Assembly (NCBI GenBank): GCA_002633005.1
Contig: NMRA01000018.1
Location: 1,766,427-1,830,426, forward strand
From: Phoronis australis
Taxonomy: Eukaryota; Animalia; Phoronida
DNA: 64,000 bases
Direction: 5' to 3'
Positions 2,118 to 52,270 of this stretch are shown piece after piece. Under the pieces are notes generated by a model. It saw only the letters and a program-made list of their open reading frames with translations. It searched no databases and had not been told where the DNA came from. The position numbers were made by a program, and so were the translations under genes. Every line of letters begins with the position of its first letter. Position 1 is the first letter of the stretch.

Positions 2118-2184
2118 ATTTGTTAGGAACACAAAATGTTTTGTCAATAGGCTTTGGCCATCCGTTGCCAGCCACAAGTTCAAC
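2118..2184 (-). CDS. ILEI domain 2, exon f (VELVAGNGWPKPIDKTFCVPNK); gene probably continues left of the window
   Basis: GWP......C.P domain-end motif; TTTCAG acceptor, GTAAGT donor; 67 nt, phase 0/1; no stop. Confidence 0.88.
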
Positions 2185-3320: not shown

Positions 3321-4885
3321 CCTCAAACAACAACTGATGAGTCATAACTAGCTAGCACAATTCACCATTTACAAGAGTTGGCAAAATCAGCAAACCAATT
3401 CTCGTCTTCCGCATTCATCGCTCTCTCTCTCTCATATCGTGTGGTATGAAATGGAGGCGCACATCCAGGCAGGTCAGCAGCCTCACTTTCGCTCCTGGAG
3501 ATTCACATGTTAGCACGTTTTCTGAATACTTTAATATATTCTATATCATGTTTAAGTCATACTGGGGAATTATTACTGCTGTGTCATGGGCTGCAGAGCC
3601 GATTCAAGGAAGTGGGACAAGCTGGATAAATATCCATGCATGTAGAATGTCACATTTCACCCCTTCCCGACGGTTCTGAAGGACAAGAGACGGCACAGCT
3701 CCACCACTGTACAATCAATATAATCTTACGTCACGGCCGAGGAGAGCGGGAGTGCGGAATACGGGAATTGCAAAGCTTTGGGTAGTCCAGCATCTTACCC
3801 AAACCTAGTAAAAAGCTACAAAAACTGAAAATGAACAACACCGATCAAAAACATGCCTTCACATTGGTAGAAGATCTTCAAAACCACGTAACCATGAATG
3901 AATGTACCGCAGGTCAGTAGAAAGTGTCTACTGTACTCGTTCGGCTTAACAACAAGGGCAGTCAAATTGGGGAGTCTAAAAAATCAGCAGACGGGTGTGG
4001 ACGTTTAAACACGATAGATTTGGAAAACCAAGGATGGACGAAAGGTTGATTCACTCACATAAACCCCGTCACCATTTTTGCATGATAATAACAAAATGCC
4101 ATGAACAAAAGAACACTAGAATTTCATGCTCCCTTTAGTAAATACCGTTAATACTCAGAGGTAAAGTTACCTTTTATGCACATTTAGAGAGCACTGATTA
4201 TCGTACGGCAAATATTCTTAAGGACAGTGGCAATTTAAGGAAGTGTTAACTGTATAAATTGGGGCTGGGCATTAGAACGAGCATGGCAAGATTAAGGAAT
4301 TTTGGGGTTGTCATTATGCCAAACATGAGAGTTAACCCAAACGAGTACAGTGTAGCTATGCCACAAGCATAAATGTCGTAACAACAAAGGAGCATCCCGA
4401 CACACACGCAGGGATTCACAGAAGCGCTGTACTGCGAAGGCACCAACAATGTAAAAATATGGTAATTGTCCACTAACTTCACACAAAACAATTATTGTCA
4501 AAATAGTTATTTTTTTCATTTTTCTAGAAACTTTACCAAATATTGTTTTAATGACATCCACATAATATAACCTACGTTAGTGAGAGACAACAATTTTCTT
4601 AATTTTTATTTTTTTGCCAAAATTCAACAAAATAGAATTTCACGTGTCGCCCATATCGCGTGTGCTAAATAAAATTAATGTAGAATTACCACACAGTTCA
4701 AACATGCCAGTCAAGGTGCACGTGTGCAAGGCAATGCACCACGCAGACCACAGTGCCGACAATACCCAGAGAATGATTCTACGAAGCAGGCAGATAAAGG
4801 TGAACCAGGGGAGGTCATAGGTTTGCAGACACCATGCTCAAGGGCTTACAATATACCGGGGAGGAGTATAGCATGCCTGAAATAC

Positions 4886-5012
4886 CTGCTCTATGTCACT
4901 GAAGCCCTTGATTCCTTTTTGCCCGACAAAAACCAAGAGGTCGCGAAATTTGTAGTTTTGTATATGGTAACTTCCCAGTTCCATGAACAGAGCCCGAGAA
5001 TGAGACGATAGT
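4886..5012 (-). CDS. ILEI domain 2, exon e variant B (LSSHSRALFMELGSYHIQNYKFRDLLVFVGQKGIKGFSDIEQ), candidate mutually exclusive exon
   Basis: CAACAG acceptor, CAG|GTATTT donor; 127 nt, open, phase 2/0; LGS..I....FRD...FVGQKG motif. Confidence 0.88.
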
Positions 5013-6032
5013 CTGTTGCAAACATTAAAAAATGCAGGGCTTAACATGAGTGGATAATGGAGAGCATACAGGGTACTAGCAATTATCATGCAACGTATAA
5101 AACTGAATAACAGTTTGAAAACCCCTTAGATCAACTTAAGGTGACAGAGGACGGACGGTCTCCCAGAAATGATCATTACGGAACAAAACCAAAACCAACA
5201 TTTGTACCGTCTTTGTAGTCTCATTTCAACTGCTGCATCAAGACCTCCTCATTTGTTTTCAATATATAAACTACTGCCTCGTTTCTAAAATCATGTTAAC
5301 CTGTAAACAACGAAGATTAAACTGACATATCATGAAAACATGTTCACTAGTCTCCGTTAATGACTGACATTTGTAAACTTTTTTGAGTCCAATCAAATTT
5401 CAGGACAATGTCAAAGGAGACCCAGGCTCAACATTGAGATATATCTCATAACACATGTCGACGAATGGAAACCAAGTCTGGCTTGATAACAAGTTCAGCT
5501 TAAGTAATGGATCATACTGGACTTCAGACAGTAGACATTTTCACGCAGAAATATTTTTTATGAGGTCATCACTAAGAAGCTGCAAAGATAAACGTGCCAG
5601 TGATTACATGACTCTCATACATCAGCGCCATCTGATGTGAAGGTAAGGACTGAAAACAAAGTAAAAACAACAAGTCAGAAAAAAATCAAATTATCTCCTC
5701 GGGTTTGTCATCTGTGACGAGGTTCTCTGAAAAACACTGCATACATGAAGCATCCAATCACATTCAAGCACAACTATGATGCGACGGTCCACTCATGAAC
5801 ATCAGAAACAAGAATATAGGGCTCTACTTCTCACTAGCACTCATGCACTGCTATGTCTAATTATGGTAAAGTCAGATAACACTGCATGCACTTTCATGCC
5901 ATTCAAACTTCTACACCCCGCGCATGTACCCAGACACAAGGGCGGAAACAGCCTAATTTTCGTAAACTTCACACGTTAGTCCACTTAGGATGTTTCACAG
6001 CCTGAAACTTTAGCTTGTCTATGTATAAGAAC

Positions 6033-6159
6033 CTGTTCTAAGGTTGTAGATCCCCTGATGCCTTTCTGTCCAATAAAGAACAAGCTCTCGCGAATGCCTA
6101 ACTTGGACACAAGAGACGAGCCGAGGTCGGTCATAATTTTTCGGCCGAGAGGATGGAGG
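6033..6159 (-). CDS. ILEI domain 2, exon e variant A (LHPLGRKIMTDLGSSLVSKLGIRESLFFIGQKGIRGSTTLEQ), candidate mutually exclusive exon
   Basis: TTCCAG acceptor, CAG|GTTCTT donor (weak); 127 nt, open, phase 2/0; homologous to 4886-5012. Confidence 0.8.
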
Positions 6160-6861
6160 CTGGAATCAAGAATTCAGTACAAAAACGTGAGGCTAATAAA
6201 CGGCAGAATCGATACTCACTAGGTGGGGCTAGTGTAGACAGGGAGCCTTACTTTTATCAGCTTTACAGATTGCAAACATAAAATTTTTAACAACTATGAG
6301 AGCGGTCGAGTGATAAGGGTCCCATGTGACCCTTGAATGATTTCTGAAGGAGTGACCATTTGTTTACTAGCGCCACATAGTGAATGTCGAGTTCTTCATT
6401 ATCAGGTGGTGAGGGACAAAGAAATTAGGTCTCTGCAAAGTTGCCAAGCAGCATTTTTGAAAAACATTAAAAAACTCATGCACAATGATAAGTCAGCTCA
6501 GCAATATTTCCCTAAGAATCAAAAATAATTTCATGCAAAAGCGATCATGAAGAGACAGGTCAAAGGAGGCAAACTAACAGGGTCCTCTTCAGTAGCTTTG
6601 CAACCTTCTGAGATAACTCGGAATCAATTACAGCTTTCCTGCCTCCTGCTAACACAACAGAGGGAGCTGTTACTTAAGTCAAGCTGGACATTTCACAATA
6701 TAATCACTCAGTGAGCTTCAAACAAAATATGGACAGGTGTGTAAAGTATGCAACGAAAAAGTAAAAAACGAGAGCAATTACTTACTAAAGGACTACAAGA
6801 ACGTTTCAAACATGCAGCTCAGGCCTTTGACCACAGATGCTGTTGATGGGAGGAAGTTGTA

Positions 6862-6945: not shown

Positions 6946-7449
6946 TTTGCACTGTTTAAGGTGTTCAACAATGGTGGGAAGATCAGTCGTGTGATCAGTC
7001 ATGTGTTCGAAGGCTTGAGCTTCAGGCATGAAATGTTATACTTACCCAACTTATAGTCTTCTAGTAAGTAACTTCTCTCGTTTTTACTATCATCACAGAA
7101 GACAACGATGAATTATGAAGACTTGTAACACTAACGTGTTACTTGTAACGTACTGCATGTACGCACGTATGTATGTAATACACTATTCTATGTATCCCAC
7201 AATTCATTGGGCAGGTGACGTCTTGTTATTCTAACTTGAATTATTTATCATTTAAACATTATGTCAACTGTTCAGAAATCAAGATGTGAGTTCTACAAAA
7301 CCCCACAAATTCATCAGATATGCTTGGTCAGCAACAGAGAGGACCTTTGCTCAAGTTGCCATCAAACTTGGGATTGGATATTGCAATAGATTCACAGTTT
7401 GGCAGAAGATCTTCACTCAACAACAGGTGTAGCAGAAGGGGGGTTTGGT

Positions 7450-8711
7450 ATCATAACAACGGCCATTAGATGGCGCAGAATGTGTCAAACCCATCTGAAT
7501 TGAAAAGGTGGTACTGTCTCTGTAGTACTGACAACTATTTGCCAAATTTCATGAAAAATAAGCCAAGGAAATAAGATAGACAGGCAAACGTAAAAAAATA
7601 TCCAATTGGTTGAAAACTAGCTGTTATCTGTTGTCATCTCTACAGGAGCCCATCTGCCAAATTTCACAAAGATCCTTCAAAATGTTAGGAGATACAGCCA
7701 CAGATGCAAAAAAGCAAAATTGCACCAACAGGGCGCCAGCATAGTCCAAAACATCAAAAAATCAAAGTCAGCCGGAGTTTTCACATCAGGAATACAACTA
7801 ACCATAAGTTTTCATAATGACCCTTTGAGTGGTTTAACATATTGAGAGACAGACGTCAAAAACCTACACAAACATTTTTAAATGACCACCAAGTGGCACA
7901 GAAAATGTCAAGTTCGTACGAAAATGGGAAGGTGTTGTTGTCTCCTTGATAGAAACCTATCTGCTGAATTTCTTGTAAATAGTACATTCATGAACGCTGA
8001 AGGTAAACAAGGTAAACAACTTTGTTACTAGGGGGCACAGGTATTTGGATTAGTTCGACGCTTGTTGCGACTTATCGTCGGCTCAAATTTCACAAAGTTC
8101 CTTCAAAGGGTTAAGGATATTCCGTTGCAAATGCAAAAAAAAACAAAATAGCCACTAGGGAGTGTCACAATTGTTGGACCCATCCAGAAGTAAGCGTCAG
8201 TCGACGTCTTCTCATCTGGAACACATCTGCAAATTTTCATAATGATCCGTTAAGCGCTATGGCAGATAGAAAGGCAGACACCAGAAAACGGACCGAAAAA
8301 TAGCAAAAATGGCCACCAAGTGGCGCAGAAAACGTCAAATCTGTCCAAAAATGGAAAGTCGTTGTCATCTCCTTAATAAAAACCTATTTGTCTAATTTCA
8401 TTAAAATACATTCAAACTCTGAAGATAAAAAGAATCCTTCCGAAAATGAAATGGCAATGTCACCTTCTTCTTAAAAACCTATTTGATGAATTTTACGAAA
8501 ATACATCAAGAAACTCCAAAGATACAGAAGCAAATGTAAAAAGTGAAATCGCCACTAGGGTGCACAGCGGTTTCCGATCGGTCCAAAACTTGTGCCAAAT
8601 ATCATCATATAAGCCTGCAAGGGGTTTAGGAGATACACCCGTGAACGCCGGATGCCCAGACAGAAATGACGGCAATATGCACCCACACATAAAGATGTGG
8701 GCACATAAAAA
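7450..8711 (+). mobile_element. Older, diverged copy of the same element
   Basis: Repeated GCCACTAGG/AAATTTCA modules; ends GACGGCAATATGCACCCACACATAAAGATGTGGGCACATAAAAA. Confidence 0.7.
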
Positions 8712-8789: not shown

Positions 8790-8874
8790 TTCATGGACGC
8801 ATCATCGTGTGTGACCACAACGACAATTTCACCCTCCTTCACGGTCTCTAGGAAGATCTCCAGACCACTGCTAT
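8790..8874 (-). CDS. ILEI domain 2, exon d (SSGLEIFLETVKEGEIVVVVTHDDASM)
   Basis: L..FL.....G.IV....DDAS motif; TTCCAG acceptor, GTAAGT donor; 85 nt, phase 1/2. Confidence 0.9.
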
Positions 8875-9096
8875 CTGGAATGGGCATGGACAGGGTAGTG
8901 AAACAACTCAACAGCTGCACTCAATTAGTACAGTAATACAGTAGGCCTGGACAAAAGAGAATGTGAAGACATGCAAATTTGGGAATTTTGACCCATATCA
9001 AAGACCATTATTAATTTCGGTTTAAATTGAATTATAGCCAAATTGGCCCAGCAAGGTTAAAGCATATTTCATTTACTTTTCACCACCGCTATATCG

Positions 9097-10509
9097 AACA
9101 AGAGCAACGCGGAGCGTTGAAATGCGCCCACAATTGCACCGCATACGGTATCCTTCTAGGGTTGTTTATTGGTACCATAAAGTGGCCAGTAGAGGGCATA
9201 CTTTGCAAAATGGAAAGGCATGGTCATTGTCTCCTCAATAGGCTAGGGGCAAAATGTGAGTAATCTTCATAATACAAGCACATCCTATACACCAGTTGCT
9301 TAAAGCACNNNNNNNNNNNNNNNNNNNNNNNNNNNNNNNNNNNNNNNNNNNNNNNNNNNNNNNNNNNNNNNNNNNNNNNNNNNNNNNNNNNNNNNNNNNN
9401 NNNNNNNNNNNNNNNNNNNNNNNNNNNNNNNNNNNNNNNNNNNNNNNNNNNNNNNNNNNNNNNNNNNNNNNNNNNNNNNNNNNNNNNNNNNNNNNNNNNN
9501 NNNNNNNNNNNNNNNNNNNNNNNNNNNNNNNNNNNNNNNNNNNNNNNNNNNNNNNNNNNNNNNNNNNNNNNNNNNNNNNNNNNNNNNNNNNNNNNNNNNN
9601 NNNNNNNNNNNNNNNNNNNNNNNNNNNNNNNNNNNNNNNNNNNNNNNNNNNNNNNNNNNNNNNNNNNNNNNNNNNNNNNNNNNNNNNNNNNNNNNNNNNN
9701 NNNNNNNNNNNNNNNNNNNNNNNNNNNNNNNNNNNNNNNNNNNNNNNNNNNNNNNNNNNNNNNNNNNNNNNNNNNNNNNNNNNNNNNNNNNNNNNNNNNN
9801 NNNNNNNNNNNNNNNNNNNNNNNNNNNNNNNNNNNNNNNNNNNNNNNNNNNNNNNNNNNNNNNNNNNNNNNNNNNNNNNNNNNNNNNNNNNNNNNNNNNN
9901 NNNNNNNNNNNNNNNNNNNNNNNNNNNNNNNNNNNNNNNNNNNNNNNNNNNNNNNNNNNNNNNNNNNNNNNNNNNNNNNNNNNNNNNNNNNNNNNNNNNN
10001 NNNNNNNNNNNNNNNNNNNNNNNNNNNNNNNNNTCCTCTACATAGTAAGCACATACATGCCAATTTTCACAATCATCCTTTGAGCGGTTTGGTTGATAGA
10101 GGGGTGGAAGCACAAAAACAGACTCGAAAACAGTAAAAATGGCCACTAGGTGGCGCAAACTATGTCGAATCCATCCGAAAACGGCAGGATAGCGTCATCT
10201 CACTACTAGGTGCCTACATACCAAATTTCATGAAAATCCGTTCAGGACTTTTGAAGATACAAAGGTAAGCGTAAAAAACTAAAATTGCCACTAGGGGGCA
10301 CACCGGTAGTCGGATCCGTCCGAAAGTTCGCACATGCCGTCCCATTCATGAATGGAACATATGTTCCAAATTTCATGAACGTATGTCAAAGGGTTTTGGA
10401 GATAGAGCAGCGGACGCCGGACGCCAGACGCCGGACGCACGCCGCCCGGACGGACGGACAGAGATGACGGCATAATGCGTCCACATATAAATATGTGGGC
10501 GCATAAAAA
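9097..10509 (+). mobile_element. Helentron/DINE-like element, probably full-length, spanning the N gap
   Basis: Starts AACAAGAGCAACGC...ATGCGCCCAC, inverted to terminal GTGGGCGCAT; internal GCCACTAGG/AAATTTCA subrepeats; microsatellite and hairpin. Confidence 0.75.
9309..10033. other. Assembly gap (725 N)
   Basis: Run of N. Confidence 1.
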
Positions 10510-11038: not shown

Positions 11039-11148
11039 CGATGGCATAAGTATCGAATCTGCCAGTCTTCAAAACTGCTTTCTCCATGGGGCTGTAAAGC
11101 ACAATATTGAAACCGCGGCCACCTTTGTTTACACTATCAGATACAACA
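11039..11148 (-). CDS. ILEI domain 2, exon b/c (VVSDSVNKGGRGFNIVLYSPMEKAVLKTGRFDTYAI)
   Basis: GRG.N and FDTY motifs; 110 nt, phase 2/1; TTTCAG acceptor, GTGAGT donor. Confidence 0.93.
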
Positions 11149-11331: not shown

Positions 11332-11512
11332 TAGTTACTGTCGACACATATGGAGGGTCCAATTTTATTGGGCATGCCCGAATAAACATGGACAGCGAAA
11401 TGGTCAAGCGGACAAGCATCCTTCATACCACAGTTCTCAACACGACTTCCCTTCAACTGGGCTCCCATGGCAACTTGATCGCGCTCAACATCGATTTTAG
11501 TGATCTCGCCCA
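11332..11512 (-). CDS. Linker plus ILEI domain 2, exon a (GEITKIDVERD...ENCGMKDACPLDHFAVHVYSGMPNKIGPSICVDSN)
   Basis: CG....CP..HF....SG.....GP.IC motif; 181 nt, phase 1/2. Confidence 0.92.
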
Positions 11513-12467: not shown

Positions 12468-12537
12468 AAGGCACAGACAGACATCCCTGTATGCTGGCTC
12501 TCCCGGGAAAGGGTGAACCCTCTTGCTTGGCTGTTAT
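12468..12537 (-). CDS. ILEI domain 1, exon f (ITAKQEGSPFPGRASIQGCLSVP)
   Basis: Terminal GC..P of the domain; CTAG acceptor, GTGAGT donor; 70 nt, phase 0/1, bridging both neighbours. Confidence 0.82.
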
Positions 12538-13813: not shown

Positions 13814-13940
13814 CATTTCTTTAGCCTTGCCACTAGTCAGGCCCCTCTGACCAACCATCACCCAGCTGTCACGGAACTTGAGCTGGTCAATCCGACCACT
13901 GCCATATTTCTTCAGCCATTCTTTCTCATCCTTTGAAAGA
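13814..13940 (-). CDS. ILEI domain 1, exon e (LSKDEKEWLKKYGSGRIDQLKFRDSWVMVGQRGLTSGKAKEM)
   Basis: GS..I..L.FRDSW..VG..G ILEI motif; 127 nt, phase 2/0; TTACAG acceptor, GTGAG donor. Confidence 0.93.
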
Positions 13941-15346: not shown

Positions 15347-15431
15347 CTGGCGACCATTTCATCCATACTGGCCATAAGCACGATATAGCCATCAAAGACA
15401 ACCAACTTGAGATACCTGAGTAGCTTACCAG
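15347..15431 (-). CDS. ILEI domain 1, exon d (GKLLRYLKLVVFDGYIVLMASMDEMVA)
   Basis: G.IVL.AS.DE motif; TTGCAG acceptor, AG|GTACGG donor; 85 nt, phase 1/2. Confidence 0.88.
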
Positions 15432-15440
15432 CTGCAAGTA

Positions 15441-15650
15441 ACAAGATATCAAGATACTAGTATGAACTGTATACGTACGGACCATAAAATCACAAGATAT
15501 GAACATTGATACTAGTATGAACTGTATACCTATGGACCATTAAGTCACAAAATATCAACATTCTAGTATGAACTGCTTACGGACCATAAATTCACAAGAT
15601 ATCAACATACCCGCATTAATTATGTACAGAAGGACCATATAATCGCAATA
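15441..15650. repeat. ~50-bp degenerate tandem repeat x4, abutting the acceptor of exon 15347-15431
   Basis: CAAGATATC...CTAGTATGAACTG...GGACCAT..A.TCA units. Confidence 0.8.
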
Positions 15651-15739
15651 TATAAATAAATATATACCTTCAAGTTCGGAATATACCAGAATAGACCATA
15701 ATAATAATATGGACAAGGAAATTTTCACCAAATCTAATA

Positions 15740-16410
15740 ATATAGACTGGAGTAATAGTAAAGACTGAATAATAGTGTAAACTGGAATAATAGTACAGAG
15801 AGGAATAATAGTATAGATAGTGTAGATTGGAGTAATAAGTGTTCACTGGAATAATGTAGACTGGAATTAATCGTGTAGTAGTATAAATAGTGAAGACTGG
15901 AATAATACGTGTGAACTAGAACAATGTAGACTGGAATTAATAGTGTAATAGATAAGTATAGATAGTGAAGACTGGAGTAATAAGTGTACACTGGAATAAT
16001 GTAGACTGGAATTAATCGTGTAATAGTATAGATAGTGAAGACTGGAGTAATAAGTGTACACTGGAATAATGTAGACTGGAATTAATAGTGTAATAGACTA
16101 AGTATAGATAGTGAAGACTGGAGTAATACGTGTACACTGGAACAATGTAGACTGGAATTAAAAGTGTGATAGTATAGATAGTGAAGACTAGAGTAATAAG
16201 TGTGAACTGGAACAATGTAGACTTGAATTAAACGTGTAGTAGTATGTATAGTGAAGACTGGCGTAATAAGTGTACACGTCTGGAATGATAGACAAAGTGT
16301 ATACTGGAATAGTACAGACTGGAATAGTGCAAACTGGTTAGTATATAGTGGAGTAATAGAATATACAATGGAATAATAGTATATATAGATCGGAATGATA
16401 GTGCAGACTG
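15740..16410. repeat. Compound minisatellite (~60-bp higher-order unit built from AGACTGGA subunits)
   Basis: Repeated GTATAGATAGTGAAGACTGGAGTAATAAGTGTACACTGGAATAATGTAGACTGGAATTAA. Confidence 0.9.
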
Positions 16411-16504
16411 GCAAAATCTGTCTTATTAAGGATGAGTTTAGTTTATGAAAAAATGACAAGATACCAAATGCACACTGGACTATCAAATCACCATAACTAC
16501 TCAC

Positions 16505-16555
16505 TTTGCTCGTAAGTGTCAAAGGTTTGCCGGTCAATCACAGCTTTGGTCTTAT
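16505..16555 (-). CDS. ILEI domain 1, exon c (KTKAVIDRQTFDTYEQ)
   Basis: FDTY motif; TTTTAG acceptor, GTGAGT donor; 51 nt, phase 1/1. Confidence 0.88.
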
Positions 16556-16805
16556 CTAAAACAAAAACAAAATCTAATACCAGCTCTGAGTAAACAATAA
16601 ACACTAACAAAAATAGCAATACATACATTTTTAATGTCGTTTTTATTATTACTGTGACTGGCATCAGTTTATTACCACTTCAGACATTAGGAAAAAGAGA
16701 AGTCAACACAATTTCAGAGTAATTTTATAGAAGTACATTCAATTAAAAGAACTTTAACAACACAGCCCGCTTTGCGGGTTATTAATGTTTCATGAGGGCT
16801 CTCAC

Positions 16806-16867
16806 CACTTATTACGACTACATTGACTCCTCTGCCAAAGGTCGAGTTATCGTTGGGGTCCACGACA
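16806..16867 (-). CDS. ILEI domain 1, exon b (VVDPNDNSTFGRGVNVVVIS)
   Basis: GRG.N motif; TACAG acceptor, G|GTGAG donor; 62 nt, phase 2/1. Confidence 0.88.
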
Positions 16868-17633
16868 CTGTAAGAGACAGTAATAGAACATCAGAATGAC
16901 ACAACACAGGCATTTTCCAGGGTAAGACTTCACATAATGTAACATGTGACTTCATGTCATACAATAGAGAGAAATTTCATGTTTCCATTGAACGCATTTG
17001 CTTCAAGCATACTTGTGAACCCTAATGTTTCATCACGCAGAGCCACATTCAAAAATCATGGTTTTGTCTAAAAAGTGGAAGATGGGTGGATGCTTTTTGT
17101 GATGCACCAGGCTTGCTGATGCCACAGAGAAGGGATCGTTACACTAAACCACTGGTTATGAACCATGCGAACCGTCAGTGAGGGGTTACTCAAGGGTGAA
17201 GTCTGCTAATCTGCCCGTTTCTCTCATGGAACAATTTTCAAAGTAGTCAATTCCCTGCAGACAAATTATGTGTCCATTGAGTAGAAGGAAGCTGTTTTGC
17301 ACAGAGTAAACTTGGGATATTTTTTAATCCTAGTGTTTCACATACTATGGACCAAGTAAACTTTCAGGTTTGCACTATTGTTATGGCAACTGCGTCACTA
17401 TATTCAGAGAGCACTTGCCTTGGTTGCTGGACAAAACACTACTTTGAGAATCAGACGAACAATAGCCCTGCTAATGTGTCATTTTTACAAGGTTTACACA
17501 ATAGCATGGCACTTTGTCTAAAAGGTATACATGCTTTTTACACAGATTGTACATTTTGCCACATTTTACACGCTTCGGCAACGTAATATGTGTAAAACTC
17601 TCACCTGGATAGACTTATATCCACAACACTTAC

Positions 17634-17736
17634 ATGTTTCCATCAAAACATATGGTCGGGCCTTCATTGGTCTTGTGCCCAGATATCACGTCGTACGAAT
17701 ACGTTCCAACAGTACACTGCACTCCACACTTGGGTT
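17634..17736 (-). CDS. ILEI domain 1, exon a (PKCGVQCTVGTYSYDVISGHKTNEGPTICFDGN)
   Basis: KCG..C......SG.....GP.IC is the FAM3/ILEI N-terminal motif; CAG acceptor, GTAAGT donor, phase 1/2. Confidence 0.9.
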
Positions 17737-21535: not shown

Positions 21536-21764
21536 TTGCGATATACACCTCCATGTCAGTTTAAGATTAAATGTTTATATGTTTATGTCATTATGAAATG
21601 TCTTTGAAATCAAAATGATCACTTGTGTCATATGACTAGTGATTTAGCTCGGGCTCAGTGTATATGGAGAGCACCAACCTTGGAGATGACAGGCAGCTAA
21701 AAGTTGAATGTAGACACAGACAGCTACTCACTGAGAGTAGACAGACAGGTACAAGCTCATTGTA

Positions 21765-22025
21765 GACTGAGAGCCACAAGCTCAGCTTAAACAGAGAGCC
21801 ACAAGCTCAGTGTAGACAGAGAGCCACAAGCTCAGCGTAGACAAAGAGCCACAAGCTCGGCCTAGACAGAGAGCCACAAGCTCAGTGTAGACAGAGAGCC
21901 ACAAGCTCAGCCTAAACAGAGAGCCACAAGCTCAGCGTAGACAGAGAGCCACAAGCTCGGTCTAGACAGAGAGCCACAAGCTCAGCATAGACTGAGAGCA
22001 ACAAGCACAGTGTAGACTGAGAGCT
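21765..22025. repeat. 25-bp minisatellite, ~10 copies
   Basis: ACAGAGAGCCACAAGCTCAGTGTAG units. Confidence 0.92.
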
Positions 22026-23821
22026 ACTACCAGTTCAGTGCAAACAGAGTTACAACTCAAGGTCAGCTGTGTGCCTCAAGTGAGAGAAAGTTCACCTTAC
22101 AAGCTACTCACAAACAGGGAGGAAAATGCCCAGTAAAATATTGTAGTTGCCCCAGTCCATTCAAATGTTGTCTTATTTTTCACTCTACGCATGAAATGAA
22201 GCAAGCATTTCACAGTGCTCCCTGTGCACTACAGAACCCCCTCAGGAAGGTGCCATTACGATGTCGAGTTATTGACTCACTTTCAATGCCCAGTCAAGCA
22301 AATCAACCAGGGTCTTTTGTAGCTCATGCCATCTGGCTCAAAATAATGATTTGGGTAGGCAAGGTGAGAAATCTAATAATTGAGATATTCACCTCGCTGC
22401 CTCACAAGGCAAAATCCTCACAGTTTCAATTGGCAAAAGATGCAAGCCATGAGGTGAACTTGGGCGCATAGCTCTCTGTCTACACTGGGCTTTACAGACT
22501 AGATTGTCGTTTAAACTGTGCTCATCGCGTACACTATAGGGAACTATAGATTTCCTCCATAATATACCACAGAAGCAGCAAACAGCCAAACTTCTATTAA
22601 TCAGAACAAATTAACAAAAAACGATCAGAGAGCACAACAGCTATATGACCAGCTTGTTAGCATGACATCTGCATTTTAAACACATGCGAAACATACAACA
22701 TGCTAATGTTAGGAGCGGCCCTAGCAATATGCCTGAAATTTGGCTAACTTCAGAACATCATAAGTCAGAGATGGCTGGTCACGATACAATGACGCTTTCA
22801 GATAATGCACGTTGGATTTAATGTGTTCCACTGTGGGCTACTGGAACATTTAGAACTACAATAAAAAATTACCTACATTGCACGGAATGAACTTGAAAGG
22901 ATAATTCAATGGAAAATTGTAAGTTTTTGATCTTGAATATTGTTCGCAAGTGAAATTTGATCATGGTTATTTACACTTGTTTGGCTATGAATGTAATTTT
23001 TTCTTGGTAAATCCCTACAAAAAGACATAGCAATGCGACCCGCTTAATGGCACATTGAAGTTAAAGTAAAGGATACTAATTTCAGAACCAGTATACTTCT
23101 ACAAACTAGTCAACTTCCATAATTTTGCAGATATTTAGCTTAACGCACGTACCAGTCAATAAGGTCCCACGTGATATTAAACGGGAAATCAGCAGTTTTC
23201 GATGTTACCTTCGGTAAAAATACGGTTAAGCCAAAAGAGAATTAGGTGATTATAGTATGCTTTTTTTTAAAATCTTGTCAGTGATGCGGTAAATGATGAT
23301 CAAAGTTTGTTGCTTAGAACAACAGATTTCGCCATCAGAGAGATTAAAAGATTCTGTTAAATGTTTAATGAATAGAATGTTACAGCCAACACTGCATAGT
23401 CTCGCAACAGCCACCTGGAAAGGAGCTGTGTGCACTTACAATAATTAACATGTGGCATTCAAGGTACCCTATGCCAAAGTGCACCGAATACCTTCGATGA
23501 TTAGACAACGTTGTGTTTATGCAGTTGTCTCAGAGACGTCGGCTAGTACATACTGTTTGTATTTGTTAAAAATTAGCACACCGAGTGCGTTACATTCTGC
23601 TTGGAAAAATACAAATCATTCAGTTTAAGTTGAATTTTGAACTTTGTTTCTATTCGACAAACTTCTCTTTGACATCAACTTTAACCCCCCCAACATCTTA
23701 AACGGATGTATGATCACCTGCCAAAGTTGCTCATATATTGAGACGTTTACGTCAAATTCTATTGTTCCACGGATCATACAGATACCCCATGGAACCAGTT
23801 ATCAACACCCAAAATGACTGT

Positions 23822-24853: not shown

Positions 24854-24940
24854 CTTTAACACTGTGTTGTGAGTTCATAGCAACTGTCGTCAGGGCGACG
24901 TGTCCATTTTGATGGACATCACCAAAAGCCTGATTCTGAA
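24854..24940 (-). CDS. ILEI-domain gene: probable stem exon (QNQAFGDVHQNGHVALTTVAMNSQHSVK)
   Basis: Strong pyrimidine tract ending TTGTAG, AAG|GTACCT donor; 87 nt, open, phase 1/1. No motif support. Confidence 0.55.
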
Positions 24941-26480
24941 CTACAACGGAAAATACAAAATGTGCAGCTCATATCCTAGAGGCCAAAAATGCAATTCATG
25001 CATCGATATATTGTGACTTTTTAAATTCCGTTTGATTACAACACAACTGCTTTGAGAAAGACCTACTTAATAACAAATAATAATTTCTAGTTGCGTTTCT
25101 ACACAAGTTATAAACTAAACTTAATAGGAAATATAGTTACACAGCCTACCATATGTTTTACTTCTGAAAATTTCAACTCTTGCAGGCAACTACACAAGGG
25201 GGGGGGCGCTACTGTATCACTTATTAATAAGCTTTAACCACTCAAATGTCAATCACCATCTTAGTTGACTAAAATTTGAGCCAAGGACAAAAAGATGCTT
25301 CGTAACCATACAAAGGCTCACATAAGGACATGGTGCCTGCGCCTTGAGAATTTTCTCAATTCAGGAGAGACTTCCTCCCCGCTCACTTCACGTCATTATG
25401 TTTCAAAAACAACATGGGCACTTGAGACTGTGAAATGGACACTTTTGAGTAACAGTGTTGCAGTATTCTGAAACCGATTATAATTGAAAGGTCAAGTAGC
25501 GAACCTTTCAGGGGACTTTCTACAGGTGGTGAGGGATTTCAACTTAATCTAAAAAAATCACAGAAATTTTAAATTCATTTCAGAAAGGAACAGGGGTGAT
25601 AGTTGGTCCCAATAAATCATGACATTGAGAGCCTTGCCATATGACATTTTTTCTTAGTTTCGATGCAGCTGCTCTCTACTGCCAAAACACCATCCGAGAA
25701 TAAGTCGTCTTAATCAATCAGTCACTTGATCTCATCCAGATAGGGGTATACCATTGAGTTTGTGTACTGGTAAATATTGCTGAATTAGCCAGGTTACTTT
25801 TTTCAAAAACACTAAAACAAGATTAAGAAGAATATGTTAATCCAGTATCTCATCAATATCATTGCTTATAACATGTTAATGAATTCAGATTAACATAACT
25901 AAAAATGTTTATGTAAACTTACCTAGTAACCGACATGTCGAATAAATATACATTTTACCCATTTTACATCTGTTTTAAACCAAGCGTAAATAACTAATTT
26001 TCACATATCAAGATTTGCCATTCCGCAATAATAATAATAATAATAAGCTGTTAGTACTTTTCCAAGATGGCAACTGTTCAGAAGCAGGGTCGAACAAGTG
26101 ATTGTTATGTCGCGGCAGCCCCAATGGTGCATAGAGAGCACTTTGTTTCACAACAGCTAAAGTTTGCCTACAATTTAGATTTTGCTACAAGTTGTACAAG
26201 TAGCGAGTTAACATGAATCACTAATGTTGAAAAAATAAATTATTTGTATATAACAGTTTTCAAAGAAGCTGATTTATCTCACTGAACTTGCTGAGTTTCA
26301 TTGGAATTTTGGCATAACATGCAATGAAAAACTACTAGAAATTTTAAAAATTGTAAATTTTCAGTCAAACATTTCCCCTCCAGATTTAATCAATTTTTCA
26401 AATTAGCATACCAAGAACATGAACTTGACAACATTTCCACCAAGTTCCGGCTTCATGAACCAAGCAAGTAGTTGGCTTAC

Positions 26481-26564
26481 CTTGCAGAGGTGCTGTCAGG
26501 AAAAATGAGTTGAACGCATACATCAGCACCGCGGCACCAATCACCATCAGCAGAATGTGGCTCA
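26481..26564 (-). CDS. ILEI-domain gene: membrane-anchor exon (SHILLMVIGAAVLMYAFNSFFLTAPLQ)
   Basis: TTGTAG acceptor, AAG|GTAAGC donor; 84 nt, phase 1/1; hydrophobic stretch typical of type II Golgi proteins. Confidence 0.7.
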
Positions 26565-28489
26565 CTACAAGGTCAAAGGTTAAATCCATTACCACCCAGG
26601 GTGCTCAAGACAAAAATGATGGAGGTGGCCTGATACCACCAGCTGTGCACCAAACTTGACTAGGCCACACAATTGGGTCCATTGTACTAATCACCTGACT
26701 CACAGGGATCCCTTGGCATGGAGTTTCTCGTGAGTGAAGTCTTCTAATCTTCCCTTTTTTTTTTCAGGTCGTTGTACTCGCACGATCTGGCGATTTCTAC
26801 CAGGCAAATTGTATGCTCTTCTAGCCGAAGACGGCGAAAACCACGATAAGCAGGGCAAATTTCCACTAATTGTTGGGGAGTCTTAACTTCCTAGCCATGC
26901 TGAGAGCAGTTTGAACAGGCCACGTGACCTGTGATGTTTCAGTGACAAGTATTTACTTAGACAAACTACCGGATAGCCAGCCTATCTTGGCATAAGGGTC
27001 TGCTGGAGCCTCTTGGCTCAACAGGACTTGGAAAATAAATTGTGTTTGTACGCAAGTGGTGCCAATGCTCCATGGATCTGCTGACGATTTATGCGCAGCC
27101 AGCTAACACTAGCAAACTGTGACAAGTAGCTGTGTGACCTTTTACATAAACTTCAAGAGCAATTCGATTCCAGAAATTCAACGTAGTTCAAACCAATCCC
27201 AGAAAATAGATTATTTCAGAGCAATGAACCAATCTAGAGGTGTAGCAATTTTAAATAAGAGTCCAGTCGTAACCTCCTGTAACACTTCAAAACATCACAT
27301 ATCTGCCAAAAATAAAAAGAATAGACACAATTTCCAAAAACCTGTTTTACCAGAGCACTGCTTCACTGTCCTGCGGAGTCCTCTAGACATCTTCAACTTT
27401 GTAGAGTTTATACTTGTATCTACATTATACAGCTAGTGGGCTTGTTGTAGTCACATTTTCAAATGCACGAGGTAGTCTGAAATGAGATGACAATACTTGT
27501 AATCAAGATAAATGCGACAAATATTAAGCTTTCAGGCATCAGCATTCTGTTAAACATACTTGCACTTACATGGACTATAAGAGCAACAGTCATTGTCTGC
27601 AATGCAGCAGCGCCCTCTCTGATTCTGTGATATTTACCCACAATGCTTTGCATCTGAGGGGAACCTGGTCCCCAGATGTACACTGTTGCCATTCTTATTA
27701 CTAGTTTACATTAAGACTAGTAAGCGATTTGTCATTCTCACTTGAAGTTTTACTGTTGCACAATATTGCCAGGGTGAAGAGAACTAGACCGTGTGTTCAG
27801 TCAAATGGAGCTTTTTTACTCTTTCAAGTCATCTAAAGTAAGTAATTTGCAAACATTAGAGAATTAATTTTATTAATTCCTTTAGACACGTTTTAAATTA
27901 ATAAACCTCTGTTGTTTCAGAAAAGTGGTAACAACATGGCGCAGTTAGATTGGTACGACGAGGGTGGCACCGAAGATAGGGCAGTAGAAAAAGTGATGAC
28001 CACAGTGTGGCCAAAATGACGACTGACAAGAATGGGCCTCATTGTTATCTTCCTCCCCAAGCCACAATAATGCTTGCTAAACCACTTCACACATATGATA
28101 ACTATTAGGAGTTGAACGTGAATTCGCGAGTCAGAATTTTACAATGCACATACTATTACACATGCTTCCTATCAAAGTAAAACGAAGGTTTGTGGGAAAA
28201 GAAACGCTGCGTGAGAACAGATTTGCAGTACAAGAAGAAACTTTGTCACTTTGAAAGGGCTTTGGAAATGTACCGTTTAATACCAAACTTGCCATAATGA
28301 CGTATGCGTGCAGTGCTTATCATGACTGCTAATTACAGTGAATTCAATCATTCTTTAACCAGTTATAAGACAGCACACTGTATGTGCTCTGCATTTTACA
28401 CTTTGGTATCTGTATCGATGAAGATAATTAGCTTTTAGAGAATTCCAAATGCTTTGTAGTTCACTGTGTTTATTTAATATAAAAACTAA

Positions 28490-30414: not shown

Positions 30415-31938
30415 TACGCCAGAGGCCTTCACTGGCTTCAGCGAATTATGTCTCACACTGATTAAAACATCAGTGTACCTTTATATTGTGACACCTTCGG
30501 AGGCCGTCAATGTTTTTAATGCCTTCCAACTAGAACACATACTCCCGTTATCAAACTTTTTCTTCAAGCAGTCCTTCATTCAGTTGCCCAACTTGGAAAC
30601 TGGCCTCCTATTTTTAGTCATAGTGTATATCCGCCTGGAGAGCGTGCAGTGTTACACATGGCCAGTTGCCGATTTGGGCTACGACGAGTTGGAAGGAATT
30701 AAAGACAAACACGGCACCGTCGCCAAAAAGATGTTCATATATGCACAAAACGTAATTAAAACAAAGTGAATTTAATATTTTTAACCAGTTTGAGGCACAA
30801 TTCGCTGAAAAGCTTCCGGCGTATGAAGTTCGTACTTCACTCTCTCTACTACTAGTATACTGGGGAACCCAATGTTCGTCCGCCTAAGCATAAAACCGAC
30901 TTGCTGTTGTACTCACCGAATTATTTCACTTCAAAGNGCCGGAAGCTTTTCGGCGAATTATGCCTCGCACCGACTAAACCATCAAAGTCACGTTGTTATA
31001 AATACCTTTTGCGCATAGAGGAACACCTGAGGAGGTTGTCGATGTGTTTAATTCCTTCCAACTCGAACAAATACTCCCATTATCAAACTTTTTCTTCGAG
31101 CAGTCCCTATTTCAGTTCCCAAAATCGTGAACTCACCATTTTTATACTGCGCACGCTAGGTGATGTGAATTCATGACCTCAATCTTTAAATAGCCCAAAG
31201 GTGAGCCATTGCGGTCTTGTCAGTGAAATGTTCGTTTCCAAAATGCCACCACATATACTTGTCTTTAATTGGCGTTACTTGAAACTGATTGTATTTCAAT
31301 GAATCATTGTTTGTATTTGACAAAAATAAATGCTGTTGATATGACATTTAATAGTCTTTGACATTTTAATGTTTAACAACACGGCAAATGCACGGCTGGT
31401 TCCCGGGAGCACGTACGCGAAGGGCGGGAACTTCAGCTTTCAAAGTTCGCCGGTAGGTCCGCAACTTCTGACCTTCGGCCTAGTTAAAAAAATGAAAAAG
31501 TTGATTTCACAATTTTGGGAACTGAAATAGGTACTGCTCGAAGAAAAAGTTTCATAACGGGAGTATTTGTTTGAGTTGGAAGGAATTAAACACATCGACA
31601 ACCTCCTAAGGTGTTCCTCTATGCGCAAAAGGTATTTATAACAACGTGACTTTGATGGTTTAGTCGGTGCGAGGCATAATTCGCCGAAAAGCTTCCGGCG
31701 TACAGAGCGTCTATAGCCTCTGCATCGCCTCTGCTTCGGGCCAACAGAGGCGATGGTCATTGTCTACCGCCAGGAGAGCGTTGCCGATTTGGGCTACGAC
31801 GAGTTGGGAGGAATTAAAGACATACACGGCACCATCGCCAAAAAGATGTTCATATATGCACAAAACGTAATTAAAACAAAGTGAATTTAATATTTTTAAT
31901 CAGTTTGAGGCATAATTCGCTGAAAAGCTTCCGGCGTA
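30415..31938. mobile_element. Cluster of related fold-back/MITE copies (30415-30823, 30938-31702, right end ~31770-31938)
   Basis: Long inverted arms ending GCCGGAAGCTTTTCGGCGAATTATGCCTC / GAGGCATAATTCGCCGAAAAGCTTCCGGCGTA; the mirror ORFs 30901+ and 31440- are by-products. Confidence 0.8.
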
Positions 31939-32154
31939 TGAAGTTCCTACTTCACTCTCTCTCTAGTCTCTGGAGTCTGGGCAGGGGCAGTGCCATGGGA
32001 CAGCCCGAGAACGATGGTCACTGTCTAAACTGTCTCCAACTACACTCGAAAGTTACACATAGTGGCGTGACGTTCATAGTTTAGCCTTGGTTTAGCATAC
32101 TTTGAGGTAAAACTCATGGCGTACAGGATGGGATATGCCACCGCCTATTCTTAC

Positions 32155-32187
32155 CCTAAAAACAAGACCTAGTTGTCGAAACGACAT
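32155..32187 (-). other. Candidate first exon or uORF of the minus-strand ILEI gene (MSFRQLGLVFR)
   Basis: ATG...AGG|GTAAGA in CpG-richer DNA 163 bp from the DSTYK ATG. Its phase 0 does not match the anchor exon (phase 1), so the link is unproven. Confidence 0.35.
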
Positions 32188-32350
32188 ACTTCGGCGTCGA
32201 CCATGATCACTTTCCGACCAATGAAACTTGCTTTTTCAAATATAACATGTACTCTTATCTATCATCTGATTGGTTTAATTCTGCGATCGAGACATTCCGC
32301 TATTTTCACCGGAGTTAGCCGGGAAGGACCAGAGTGAGATGACTTCCGCG
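32188..32350. promoter_or_regulatory. Probable (bidirectional) promoter region
   Basis: Oppositely oriented CCAAT boxes (CCAAT ~32218, ATTGG ~32269), ETS-like ACTTCCG (~32342), no TATA box; lies between divergent genes. Confidence 0.5.
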
Positions 32351-32474
32351 ATGGCTGCTAACTTGCCAAACGAAGTTAACAAATTTTGTGCAAATTTGGC
32401 AAAAATTAGAAGAAGCTTAAACGAAACTAAAAGTTGTTTTAGTGACATAAGCGCGCACGGGAATATAGGTGCAG
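32351..32474 (+). CDS. DSTYK: DSTYK exon 1 (MAANLPNEVNKFCANLAKIRRSLNETKSCFSDISAHGNIGA)
   Basis: ATG in GCGATGG context; ends CAG|GTAAGT; 124 nt, phase 1, matching exon 2. Confidence 0.8.
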
Positions 32475-32562
32475 GTAAGTGGATTGAGTTCAAGGTTGTT
32501 TTAGCAGTGTTAGTCGTTTGTTTGGTTGCTGACATACTGTCTGTGTTGTGTTGTTGTGATGA

Positions 32563-34108
32563 AGTAACTCACACAGGCATCTTCAGCTTCTGATTATCCC
32601 CAATACACTATATAATACTACAAGGTATGACACTCCGGACAAGAAATTCCACGGGTGCTTCACTTCAGTCGTCCATAGCAAACACAAATCTCAATAAATT
32701 TACACAAAACAGGTTCAACAAACCATGAGGAATTTTTCTCCCAACGAATATAGTCCGGTTACCTATTGTCGTCAGGCTCCAAAGGTCGTCCGCCATCTTG
32801 TTTCGCGTGCAGCGCAACCACGCGGGACTTAGCGTTCCAATTTGGAGTGCTCGTGTGCACGTTAGGTACTAACTTATCGGAATAGACACTCATCAAAGTA
32901 ATGAGACAAAAATCGGTGAGTTTACCGATTGTTTTTTAAAACCACTTAAAAATCAGTAGATTTTACTAATACACTTTTTTGTGCGTTTTCAGAAGATGTT
33001 TTCGAATTTAAATTTTCTTCCGACGGGACACAAAACATGATCCAGGGTTTGTTTATGCAATGTATCTGTTTGTCCCAGGCACTAGTAGGATCTAGAAGGC
33101 CAAAGGAAAAATCCGCAGACAAATGCGATACGCTGGGTTCTTAACATTTTTGCCTCACGCATTCACCATTAAACTGCATTGAAATGTTGTCCAATTGGCT
33201 TTTATTGGAAACCACAGTGCAGAGCTCAACATCAAAGCTTCAAATCGAGTTTATGTCAATAAAAACAGGCTGTTGCAATTTTCATTACTTCGTTGGCCTT
33301 TTTCTGCATGTTTCTCAGTTTTTACAAAAGGGGGCAGCATATGACGACCTTAGGTGTCACAATAAAATGGCTGCCGAAGGCAGTGCACATTTGAAATAAC
33401 TCGGCACAAATTAAAGAAAACTTCCGAATCGATGAATGCGGTATATCTGTGAGAGTTAAATCGAATCCTATTCAGATCATAACTTTGAAGTGGAATAATT
33501 CGGTGAGTACAACAGCAAGTCGGTTTTATGCTTAGGCGGACGACCATTGGGTTCCCGAGTATACCATATAGGCATATACGATGTCCTGCTTCACCCAGTT
33601 CGATAGAAATTCGTGGTTAAAGCTCAAAAATGTTTGCAAAAAGCCCGTCCGGAGATACTCCTTTGTAAATCAGACTATACGGAATTGTCCAATGAGTTAC
33701 GAATGAATGGCAATTGCCGATTTGTCACAGAAAAAGTTATTTAAACCGTGACTAATCGGCTATTGACGTTCATCCGTAACTCATTGGATAATTCCGTAAT
33801 AATCGCTCTTGACCTCGATTTACAAAGGAGTTTCTCCGTACGGAATTTTTGGGAAGATTTTTGTGCTTTGATCGCGAATTTCTTGTGAACTGGGTGAAGC
33901 AGGACACCGTAAATGGTATTGGGAGAAAGAACAATTCCTCATGGTTTGTTGAACGTCTGTTTTGTGTAAATTTATTGAGTTTTGTGTTTGCTATGGATGG
34001 CTGAAGTGAAGCACCCGTGGAATTTCTAGTCCGGGGTATCATACCTTATTTAGACCTATGTGTATTAGGGACGATCAGAAGCAAAGGATACCTGTGGATG
34101 AAGTTAGT
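32563..34108. mobile_element. Inverted-repeat element (arms ~32563-32745 and ~33918-34108) with nested elements at ~32764-33563 and 33577-33911
   Basis: Arms are reverse complements (AAGGTATGA...GAAATTCCACGGGTGCTTCACTTCAG); inner palindrome TACGATGTCCTGCTTCACCCAGTT / AACTGGGTGAAGCAGGACACCGTA; middle element has GGTCGTCCGCC / GGCGGACGACC ends. Confidence 0.8.
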
Positions 34109-41570: not shown

Positions 41571-42085
41571 AGTTTTCTCCAAGGACACTTCTTGATGAAG
41601 TTGAAAAGACTTTAGAACATAAACTATCCCTTTCACCCACCATTGTTGTACTCGGACAGACATGTTGGGCAAAGGCATACGTCATCAACGAACTATTTAG
41701 TAAACCAGTGCTGCCATCTGTGGAACAACTTGAGGATTCCACCAGCTGGCGTATGGTACAGTTTAAATATGGCAAGAAACAGTCGATTGGACTCAGCCTG
41801 GCTGGCAGCTATGAGCTTGTGGATAATTTAGCAGCGTATAGTAGACGGTGGGACACAGTGCCACTGGAGGATTTAGAGTTGAATTTCGACGAGACAGGGG
41901 ATTCAGCCAACAGGGCGGCGGTGTTGGAAGTGACACTGAACCACCCGCTGTTGAGTAGTGGTGCCTCTGTGATCATGTCTCCTTGTAACTACAATGGAAA
42001 TGCTAATGAAGTCTTTGCTATGTGCACAGATGAGGTGCTACCTGTGGTGATATATGCTGTGGGTAACAACCAGTTGACCATGAAG
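41571..42085 (+). CDS. DSTYK: DSTYK exon 2 (FSPRTLLDE...PTIVVLGQTCWAKAYVINELFSKPVLP...LEVTLNHPLL...QLTMK)
   Basis: TTTTACAG acceptor, AAG|GTGAGT donor, open frame; the LGQ..K..IN.L...VLP and LEVTLNHPLL motifs match the recalled DSTYK N-terminal region. Confidence 0.9.
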
Positions 42086-42654
42086 GTGAGTGCAGTGTTG
42101 TGCGGGTGGACTGCTGAGTGGCAACTCTCACAGATAATGACAAAGTTGTCAGTGTATTTCAAAATTCTCTCTGCCTCTCAAATGAAGAGTGAAATTTCTA
42201 ATATTTCCCAGAAACACAGTGTCTCAAGTCCAAAGTATTTCTAGCATTTCTTGATATTTATTCTTTCTTATTTTGAAAAACTCTCTGCATCATTGCGTCA
42301 AATTGGCTTTGTGGCAACCAGTGCTACATTGGGAATCCACGTGGGAGTTCATGAAATTCATGTGACTGTGAAGTTAGAATTTTTTAAACCATGGTGATCA
42401 TGAGATCTCAGATTCATGAAAATCATGTGATGAAGAAAAGCCCATATCCGGATTCTAAAGTTTTCAGTAAATCACCACATCTCTGTACACAGGGGTATCA
42501 GGTAGCGTATAAAATTACTATGATAACCCTTTACAAGGAACATAATGACACAGGCCTGTTGATTGGTGTCAGCTCCGGTTTGCAGGACGTCTTTGTAGGC
42601 TATGCCAAACACAGAGCTTGCTTGCATACAGAACATCACTGAGTCGTATAAGTA

Positions 42655-51953: not shown

Positions 51954-52270
51954 GTGAGGGTTGGTTATCTTGCACTGTCCTTGACATTTGCTTGAGGAAT
52001 GTTTTTAGACGACCCAATTAAAAACCCATTGTTAAATAGCAGTTCAGACGGAAATTTTCTGCTTGTGGAATTTCTGCTGAAAAATTAAGACTTATGGACA
52101 TGTTGAGCTATGAAAAACGTATTGCCCCATCCACGGTCTAAATACATGTAGCTGGTCATGTGTACAAGGTGTTCGTAATTCTTAGAAAAGTGTGACTTAA
52201 ACTTCGTCCCAATCTTTTGAAGTATTTTGACGTGAAGTCATGTGGCTATTATTCTCTACCTGTTATTCAG

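What the first reader, a model, noticed from the sequence alone, without database searches (positions are those of the whole stretch)
4886..6159. Mutually exclusive exon pair that swaps the putative ligand-binding loop of the second ILEI domain
Seen: two intact minus-strand exons (6033-6159 and 4886-5012), both exactly 127 nt and phase 2/0 with AG/GT ends. They encode the same domain segment (LGSSLVSKLGIRESLFFIGQKGIRG versus LGSYHIQNYKFRDLLVFVGQKGIKG), and I found only one upstream exon (8790-8874) and one downstream exon (2118-2184). Including both or neither shifts the frame. Both remain open despite heavy divergence, which implies selection on each. Known (from memory): in the POMGnT1 stem lectin domain the Arg of the (W/F)RD motif contacts the sugar together with the GRG Arg and the DE Asp. 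Inference: splicing toggles FRD versus IRE and so may tune glycan recognition. I do not know of this being described for ILEI/FAM3/POMGnT1-like genes.
Basis: partly seen in the sequence, partly recalled or inferred. Interest (0 to 1): 0.8.

Follow-up and report, generated by a model that had tools for sequence, protein, structure and literature searches.

The report
Swappable exon in sugar-binding stem domain
An animal gene for a predicted Golgi sugar-transferase splices in one of two look-alike exons that rebuild part of its predicted sugar-binding domain; the same pair lies in two other animal genomes, so it is likely an old, regulated switch that would tune binding rather than turn it off.

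Summary
Exons A (6033-6159) and B (4886-5012) are each 127 nt and bounded by AG/GT. RNA reads show all four junctions to the shared flanking exons (43, 24, 22 and 18 reads) and no A-to-B junction. The A share differs between three samples (82%, 69%, 21%). The gene is FAMP-1/POMGnT1-like: a membrane anchor, two ILEI domains and, in relatives, a GNT-I domain.

Two other animal contigs carry the same A-then-B pair, while three carry B alone. Trees favour one old duplication over three separate ones (AU p=0.008), but that signal rests on three of 42 columns.

The sugar-contacting Arg (POMGnT1 R207) is kept in both exons, and the four other A-type segments read FRD or LRD. The conserved difference lies beside it: B has Gln-Asn and Gly-Phe/Tyr (19 of 19), A never does (0 of 5).

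This is most likely a regulated tandem-exon substitution that tunes the stem lectin. My searches found no description of it for this family. It is a new member of a known kind; interest 0.5.

The parts
6033..6159 (-). Alternative exon A (upstream copy), 127 nt; C-terminal half of ILEI domain 2; keeps the R207-equivalent Arg; lacks the Gln-Asn and Gly-Phe signature; gives Asn at the junction
   Evidence: junction reads 43 (up-A) and 22 (A-down)
4886..5012 (-). Alternative exon B (downstream copy), 127 nt; the family-standard form with Gln-Asn, FRD and Gly-Phe; gives Lys at the junction
   Evidence: junction reads 24 (up-B) and 18 (B-down)
8790..8874 (-). Shared upstream exon, 85 nt; carries the D179-equivalent Asp (HDDAS)
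2118..2184 (-). Shared downstream exon, 67 nt; ends ILEI domain 2; reads run on into a further exon that was not found in the window
11039..11148 (-). Predicted exon of ILEI domain 2 with the R129-equivalent Arg (GRGFN)
   Evidence: predicted from splice sites and homology; no reads laid
11332..11512 (-). Predicted exon: linker and Cys-containing start of FAM3-like domain 2
12468..12537 (-). Predicted exon: end of FAM3-like domain 1
13814..13940 (-). Predicted domain-1 counterpart of the alternative exon, also 127 nt, single copy
15347..17736 (-). Four predicted exons of FAM3-like domain 1 (17634-17736, 16806-16867, 16505-16555, 15347-15431)
24854..27390 (-). Three predicted 5' coding exons (27351-27390 from the ATG, 26481-26564 with the membrane anchor, 24854-24940): type II membrane topology
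   Evidence: open frame, AG/GT ends, hydropathy peak at residues 17-35
4600..6600 (-). Region around the two exons, enriched in GCATG, a candidate RBFOX-type splicing element
   Evidence: 9 of 43 sense-strand GCATG of window 1-27000, 3.3 expected, P=0.0045, post hoc, four motifs tried

Best explanation
The gene splices exactly one of two tandem, homologous 127-nt exons into the second ILEI (stem) domain of a predicted FAMP-1/POMGnT1-like Golgi glycosyltransferase, and this likely old, likely regulated choice would tune the domain's binding while keeping its predicted sugar contacts. Shown: both isoforms exist as RNA, their ratio differs between samples, and all three residues equivalent to POMGnT1's sugar contacts are kept in both. 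Also shown: the same A-then-B pair occurs in two other animal contigs. Inferred: one ancient duplication, with B fixing a Gln-Asn/Gly-Phe surface beside the Arg loop that A lacks. Inferred: transcripts with both exons or neither are removed by nonsense-mediated decay. Inferred: RBFOX-type GCAUG elements help set the ratio. The likely outcome is two enzymes with the same catalytic domain whose stem prefers different glycans or partner proteins.
For: Four junction types in three RNA runs and no A-B joint. A share by reads 0.82/0.69/0.21, p=2e-6; by distinct start places 0.77/0.68/0.29, p=0.002. Relatives have 2 ILEI + GNT-I (5 of the 7 long hits scanned; 15 of 16 rows with GNT-I and 16 of 16 with ILEI), and a relative's model matches POMGnT1 5GGI at E 1e-45. 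L003 (819-945 and 2680-2806) and L008 (605-731 and 1436-1562) each hold two 127-nt AG/GT exons in the same order. In all 3 pairs A starts with a pyrimidine and B with a purine; the Lingula and Ridgeia proteins also have Asn at that junction. All 5 A-type segments lie on one side of a branch, support 81/94 and 92/92 with fish FAM3 added. A tree holding all three within-genome pairs together is rejected, AU p=0.008. Synonymous differences between A and B within a genome are near saturation (0.68-0.88) while both stay open. In the model of relative P0015 the exon spans a helix, a short helix with Gln-Asn, the Arg loop and a strand. PMC9802357 (passages): the second FAM3-like domain of FAMP-1 binds GlcNAc and mannose and is needed for thermotaxis.
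Against: No binding data for either isoform. The tree has 42 columns and no starred A branch. Each within-genome pair tested alone is not rejected (p=0.08, 0.38, 0.18), and A splits when columns 18, 19 and 37 are removed, so long-branch attraction or parallel loss of the B signature remains possible. Lingula and Ridgeia are seen only as A-type proteins, with no genomic view of a second exon. Three contigs (L005, L006, L007) have the upstream exon followed by B with no A, so a single origin needs losses. The three samples' tissues are unknown and differences could be between individuals. Run X1 has 0 up-B but 6 B-down reads, which is unexplained. L008 has no GCATG within 250 nt of either exon. 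The catalytic domain lies beyond the window and was not seen.
Confidence: 0.62

Rival explanations
1. The exon pair is real, but it arose several times. This exon duplicates readily and one copy then loses the B signature, so the A exons only look alike.
For: The A grouping vanishes without three columns. Single-pair AU tests do not reject within-genome pairs. A-to-A identity is low, 13-25 of 42. PMC9741552 (passages) reports that most tandem-exon events shared by human and fly orthologues arose independently (7 of 42 with common ancestry).
Against: The joint AU test rejects three separate duplications, p=0.008. The order is A-then-B in 3 of 3 loci, and the first base is a pyrimidine in A and a purine in B in 3 of 3. 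The window's A is closer to the Lingula segment (20/42) than to its own B (16/42).
Confidence: 0.25
2. A is an attenuator: it makes a stem that binds sugar poorly or not at all, so splicing switches the lectin off rather than retuning it.
For: A segments evolve faster (long branches) and lack residues invariant in B. The window's A changes FRD to IRE. PMC9802357 found that five different point mutations in this domain each perturbed sugar binding.
Against: The Arg and the core (Leu1, Gly13-Ser14, Leu20, Phe28, Gly30, Ile34, Gly36) are invariant in all 5 A segments. Human POMGnT1 and FAM3C, both reported to bind GlcNAc, also lack Gln-Asn and Gly-Phe at these columns. A is the major form in 2 of 3 samples.
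Confidence: 0.15
3. A is a decaying duplicate that is spliced only as noise.
For: Its donor lacks the +5 G found in all 10 constitutive donors checked.
Against: B's donor lacks it too. A has 65 junction reads against 42 for B. It is open at exact length despite near-saturated synonymous divergence, and counterparts exist in other genomes.
Confidence: 0.03

Closest known systems
Tandem duplicated exon substitution / mutually exclusive exons (PMC9741552 and PMC5740500, passages read)
   Same: Two adjacent homologous exons of equal length and phase, each joined to the same flanks, frame-incompatible when combined (the commonest class in human, 377 MXE clusters or 60%), with sample-dependent use.
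   Different: POMGNT1 and FAM3 do not occur in the main text of the human catalogue (supplements not seen). Here the swapped part lies in a lectin-type stem of a predicted glycosyltransferase.
C. elegans FAMP-1/M70.4 and its amphioxus-like homologue (PMC9802357, abstract and passages)
   Same: Two tandem FAM3-like domains ahead of a POMGnT1-like C-terminal part; the second domain is the sugar-binding one in FAMP-1.
   Different: No isoforms are mentioned for famp-1 ('isoform' 0 hits), and it does not appear in the main text of a C. elegans mutually-exclusive-exon survey. Here domain 1 also keeps all three contact residues, unlike Fam3L1.
Human POMGnT1 (PDB 5GGF/5GGI) and FAM3A/B/C
   Same: Same fold and the same R129/D179/R207 positions.
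   Different: One ILEI domain rather than two. At the signature columns they lack Gln-Asn and Gly-Phe like exon A, and fish FAM3 segments fall on the A side of the tree. I recall no duplicated exon at this place in them (recalled, not tested).
FGFR IIIb/IIIc and C. elegans egl-15 5A/5B
   Same: A homologous exon swap in an extracellular or lumenal binding domain under RBFOX-type control (egl-15 from passages; FGFR IIIb/IIIc recalled).
   Different: An unrelated protein family; ligand switching is demonstrated there and untested here.

Membership tests
Mutually exclusive tandem duplicated exons | Adjacent homologous exons of equal length and phase between shared flanking exons | tested here: met
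Mutually exclusive tandem duplicated exons | Each exon is joined in RNA to both shared flanks | tested here: met
   43, 24, 22 and 18 junction reads over three runs
Mutually exclusive tandem duplicated exons | No stable transcripts with both exons or with neither | tested here: met
   No A-B joint in a complete table with a 3-read floor; skip not among 15 shown of 27 joints; both cases break the frame. Depth is low.
Mutually exclusive tandem duplicated exons | Both protein isoforms are made | not testable with these tools
   needs proteomics
Docking-site/selector RNA pairing (Dscam type) | One intronic site complementary to a selector beside each exon | tested here: not met
   0 of 11 flank pairs beat shuffles (best 7 of 60); no shared arm among the five longest inverted repeats per locus. 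Only 150-200 nt flanks were folded.
Steric exclusion by a distant branch point | Branch point within about 50 nt of the upstream donor, with a long AG-free zone before the downstream acceptor | tested here: not met
   A-B introns are 704-1734 nt and AG-free zones 25-32 nt, although CTAAC lies 13-54 nt after the A donor in 3 of 3 loci
FAMP-1/POMGnT1-like protein | N-terminal membrane anchor followed by two FAM3-like (ILEI) domains | tested here: met
   (5' exons predicted, not read-checked)
FAMP-1/POMGnT1-like protein | C-terminal GNT-I (GT13) catalytic domain | tested here: inconclusive
   It lies beyond window position 1. Loose read ends after 2118 translate (by hand) into the family's linker, as in Ridgeia P0037; relatives have GNT-I.
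POMGnT1 stem-type lectin | R129, D179 and R207 equivalents | tested here: met
   present in both isoforms and in domain 1
POMGnT1 stem-type lectin | Binding to beta-linked GlcNAc | not testable with these tools
   needs a binding assay

The most novel reading that the evidence does not exclude
One duplication early in bilaterian or spiralian evolution created a tissue-regulated splice switch in the stem lectin of the ancestral POMGnT1/FAM3 gene. Several phyla still use it to aim a Golgi GlcNAc-transferase at different glycans or partners. Other lineages fixed one exon: B in molluscs, and an A-like form in vertebrate POMGnT1 and FAM3, whose segments lack the B signature.
Probability: 0.2. Interest if true: 0.75.

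Novelty: new member of a known kind. Interest (0 to 1): 0.5.

Why it matters
Tandem-exon substitutions are rare (236 in human and 154 in fly), and few shared ones have common ancestry (PMC9741552, passages). One that recurs across distant invertebrates in the stem lectin of a POMGnT1-like protein marks a surface that selection has kept in two states. It offers a natural pair of variants for the open question of what FAM3/ILEI-type domains bind. It may also show how vertebrate POMGnT1 and FAM3 relate to the two-domain invertebrate gene. The splicing mechanism itself is ordinary, and the functional effect is untested.

Tried and rejected
FRD versus IRE as the conserved switch: rejected. Consecutive domains instead of alternatives: rejected; no hit between A and B, and reads join each to the same flanks. 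An exon hidden in the N gap at 9309-10033: unlikely, because the spliced protein aligns to relatives over about 350 residues across it. A as a copy of the domain-1 exon: rejected; A is 10/42 identical to it and domain-1 segments form their own starred group. Docking/selector pairing and steric branch-point exclusion: not found. Conserved intronic elements between the window, L003 and L008: none beyond short chance matches in the printed BLASTN output. dN/dS: synonymous sites are saturated except between L003B and L004B (pS 0.39, pN 0.01), so no ratio is given. Placing the organism: unresolved; it is 35-50% identical to all 17 relatives and lies outside the mollusc group. Homologue search with the linker exon: nothing by word index or the Atlas. 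A search with the A alignment returned only its two input proteins among 441 candidates. Loci L001, L002 and L004 show B only but lack the upstream exon, so they are uninformative; L009 begins inside B; L010 and L011 are weak partial matches and were dropped. Logan13 was dropped from the trees as a long branch; it lacks Gln-Asn and has Gly-Tyr. L004, L006 and near-identical cluster members were left out as near-copies. No indexed RNA holder was listed; same-species raw reads were used. Run X4 (contigs) did not cover the exons. No whole genome is held. The original structure papers of POMGnT1 and FAM3C are not held, so contacts of W206 and D208 are unchecked. Earlier scan findings: none.

Full report
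Observation. On the minus strand, 6033-6159 (A) and 4886-5012 (B) are each 127 nt with CAG acceptors and CAG|GT donors. Either one joins the upstream exon 8790-8874 to the downstream exon 2118-2184 in frame. With twelve predicted upstream exons from the ATG at 27390, either choice gives 426 open codons; both together stop at codon 443, and neither shifts the frame. In the skip case the next exon, seen only as a loose read end, would begin with a stop codon (read by hand). A and B share 16 of 42 residues and 65 of 126 bases, and both match the C-terminal part of Pfam ILEI and FAM3 structures.

Expression. Three same-species RNA runs, 18-19% of each read, give up-A 20/18/5, up-B 0/12/12, A-down 8/13/1 and B-down 6/2/10 reads, all from the strand expected for a minus-strand transcript. 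A narrower lay listed all 5 joints that passed its 3-read floor, with no A-B joint. The skip joint was not among the 15 shown of 27. The A share is 0.82, 0.69 and 0.21 by reads (p=2e-6) and 0.77, 0.68 and 0.29 by distinct start places (p=0.002). Tissues are unknown, so this may reflect tissue, condition or individual. Run X1 has no up-B read but six B-down reads, which sampling or partly spliced RNA may explain.

The gene. An HMMER search with the linker exon found 30 proteins. Of the 7 long ones scanned, 5 have two ILEI domains plus GNT-I. Named members are POMGnT1-like proteins of Lingula, molluscs, annelids and a nemertean. The window's spliced region is 35-50% identical to all 17 relatives and sits unresolved outside the molluscs, so the phylum is not determined. 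A model of relative P0015 (mean pLDDT 81) matches human POMGnT1 (E 1e-45) and FAM3C. This is the layout of C. elegans FAMP-1, whose second domain binds GlcNAc and mannose (PMC9802357, abstract and passages). The catalytic domain lies beyond the window and is inferred from relatives and from loose read ends leading into the linker.

Conservation. A metagenome scan with 13 B-type segments gave 11 loci from 299 pattern matches. Two hold a tandem pair in the same order as the window, both exons 127 nt with AG/GT ends: L003 (819-945, 2680-2806) and L008 (605-731, 1436-1562, followed by the downstream exon). Three (L005, L006, L007) have the upstream exon followed by B with no A. L001, L002, L004 and L009 do not reach far enough upstream, and L010 and L011 are weak matches. 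The Lingula and Ridgeia proteins carry A-like segments with Asn at the junction. In all three genomic pairs A begins with a pyrimidine and B with a purine.

One origin or several. The five A segments lie on one side of a branch, 81/94 or 92/92 with fish FAM3 added, never starred. With domain-1 segments included, only two of the five group, next to domain 1. Forcing the three within-genome pairs together is rejected (AU p=0.008, LG+G4), but each pair alone is not (p=0.08-0.38), and A splits when columns 18, 19 and 37 are dropped. I put a single old duplication at about 65-70%. Convergent duplication is common in this class (PMC9741552, passages).

What changes in the protein. Counting along the 5GGF alignment, R129 is the GRG Arg, D179 the first Asp of KDEG and R207 the WRD Arg (with residue names). 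In the window the first two lie in shared exons and the third is in both A and B. The Arg is invariant in all 24 domain-2 segments; the other four A segments read FRD or LRD, so IRE is private to this lineage. The conserved difference is Gln18-Asn19 (19 of 19 B, 0 of 5 A) and Phe/Tyr37 (19 of 19 B, 0 of 5 A); the groups were defined partly by these features, and one long-branch segment with neither pattern (Logan13) was left out. In the model, Gln-Asn sits in a short helix four to five residues before the Arg. Human POMGnT1, FAM3 and six of seven domain-1 segments have neither Gln nor Asn there, and the seventh has only the Asn. B is thus the specialised form and A resembles the general family state. 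That the difference tunes glycan or partner binding is inference.

How exclusion likely works. No docking/selector pairing was found in 11 flank pairs or among long inverted repeats. Steric exclusion is unlikely, given 704-1734 nt introns and AG-free zones of 25-32 nt. Frame incompatibility with decay of wrong products is the likely safeguard, as in 60% of human clusters (PMC5740500, passages). Both donors in the window lack the +5 G present in 10 of 10 constitutive donors checked. GCATG is enriched around the pair (9 of 43, 3.3 expected, P=0.0045, post hoc; 11 versus 4.6 over six alternative exons, though none in L008). This is the RBFOX element implicated in nematode clusters (PMC4165533, passages), and it is a lead only.

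Novelty. Five literature searches (listings and abstract starts only) showed no paper on alternative exons in FAM3, POMGnT1-like or famp-1 genes. Word look-ups in the main texts of three papers also found none. Supplements and subscription papers were not seen and could list it. The scan's earlier findings held nothing.

Verdict. A real, expressed and probably ancient mutually exclusive exon pair in a lectin-type stem domain: a new member of a known kind. Interest 0.5.

Noticed in passing
window 32279-63041, + strand: A multi-exon protein kinase gene runs on the + strand away from this gene. An ORF at 62745-63041 matches Pfam Pkinase (E 1e-8); the large exons at 41522-42244 and 51182-52021 have no Pfam match. 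It looks like DSTYK (name recalled, not tested).
   Followed up: partly
window 30491-34047: A nest of long inverted and direct repeats upstream of the gene (arms of 208, 105, 99, 91 and 82 nt at 83-96%), probably fold-back transposon remnants, overlapping the likely shared promoter region.
   Followed up: partly
window 4984: All 31 reads covering this base in exon B differ from the assembly (T>C on +), which by hand count changes Met to Val at a variable column; an allele or an assembly error.
   Followed up: no
window 9076-9300 and 7400-8700: Intronic repeats that attract very deep RNA coverage (about 750-880x at 9076-9300); an abundant transcribed repeat family.
   Followed up: no
window 5979; L003 958; L008 760: A CTAAC motif lies 54, 13 and 29 nt after the exon A donor in all three tandem loci; possibly a STAR/QKI-type element (recalled), post hoc.
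   Followed up: partly
L006 3758-4073: Several short tandem copies of a piece of the exon after domain 2; a local duplication or an assembly artefact.
   Followed up: no
window 15760-16400, 21760-22080 and 58191-58895: Tandem repeat arrays inside introns, seen by eye.
   Followed up: no
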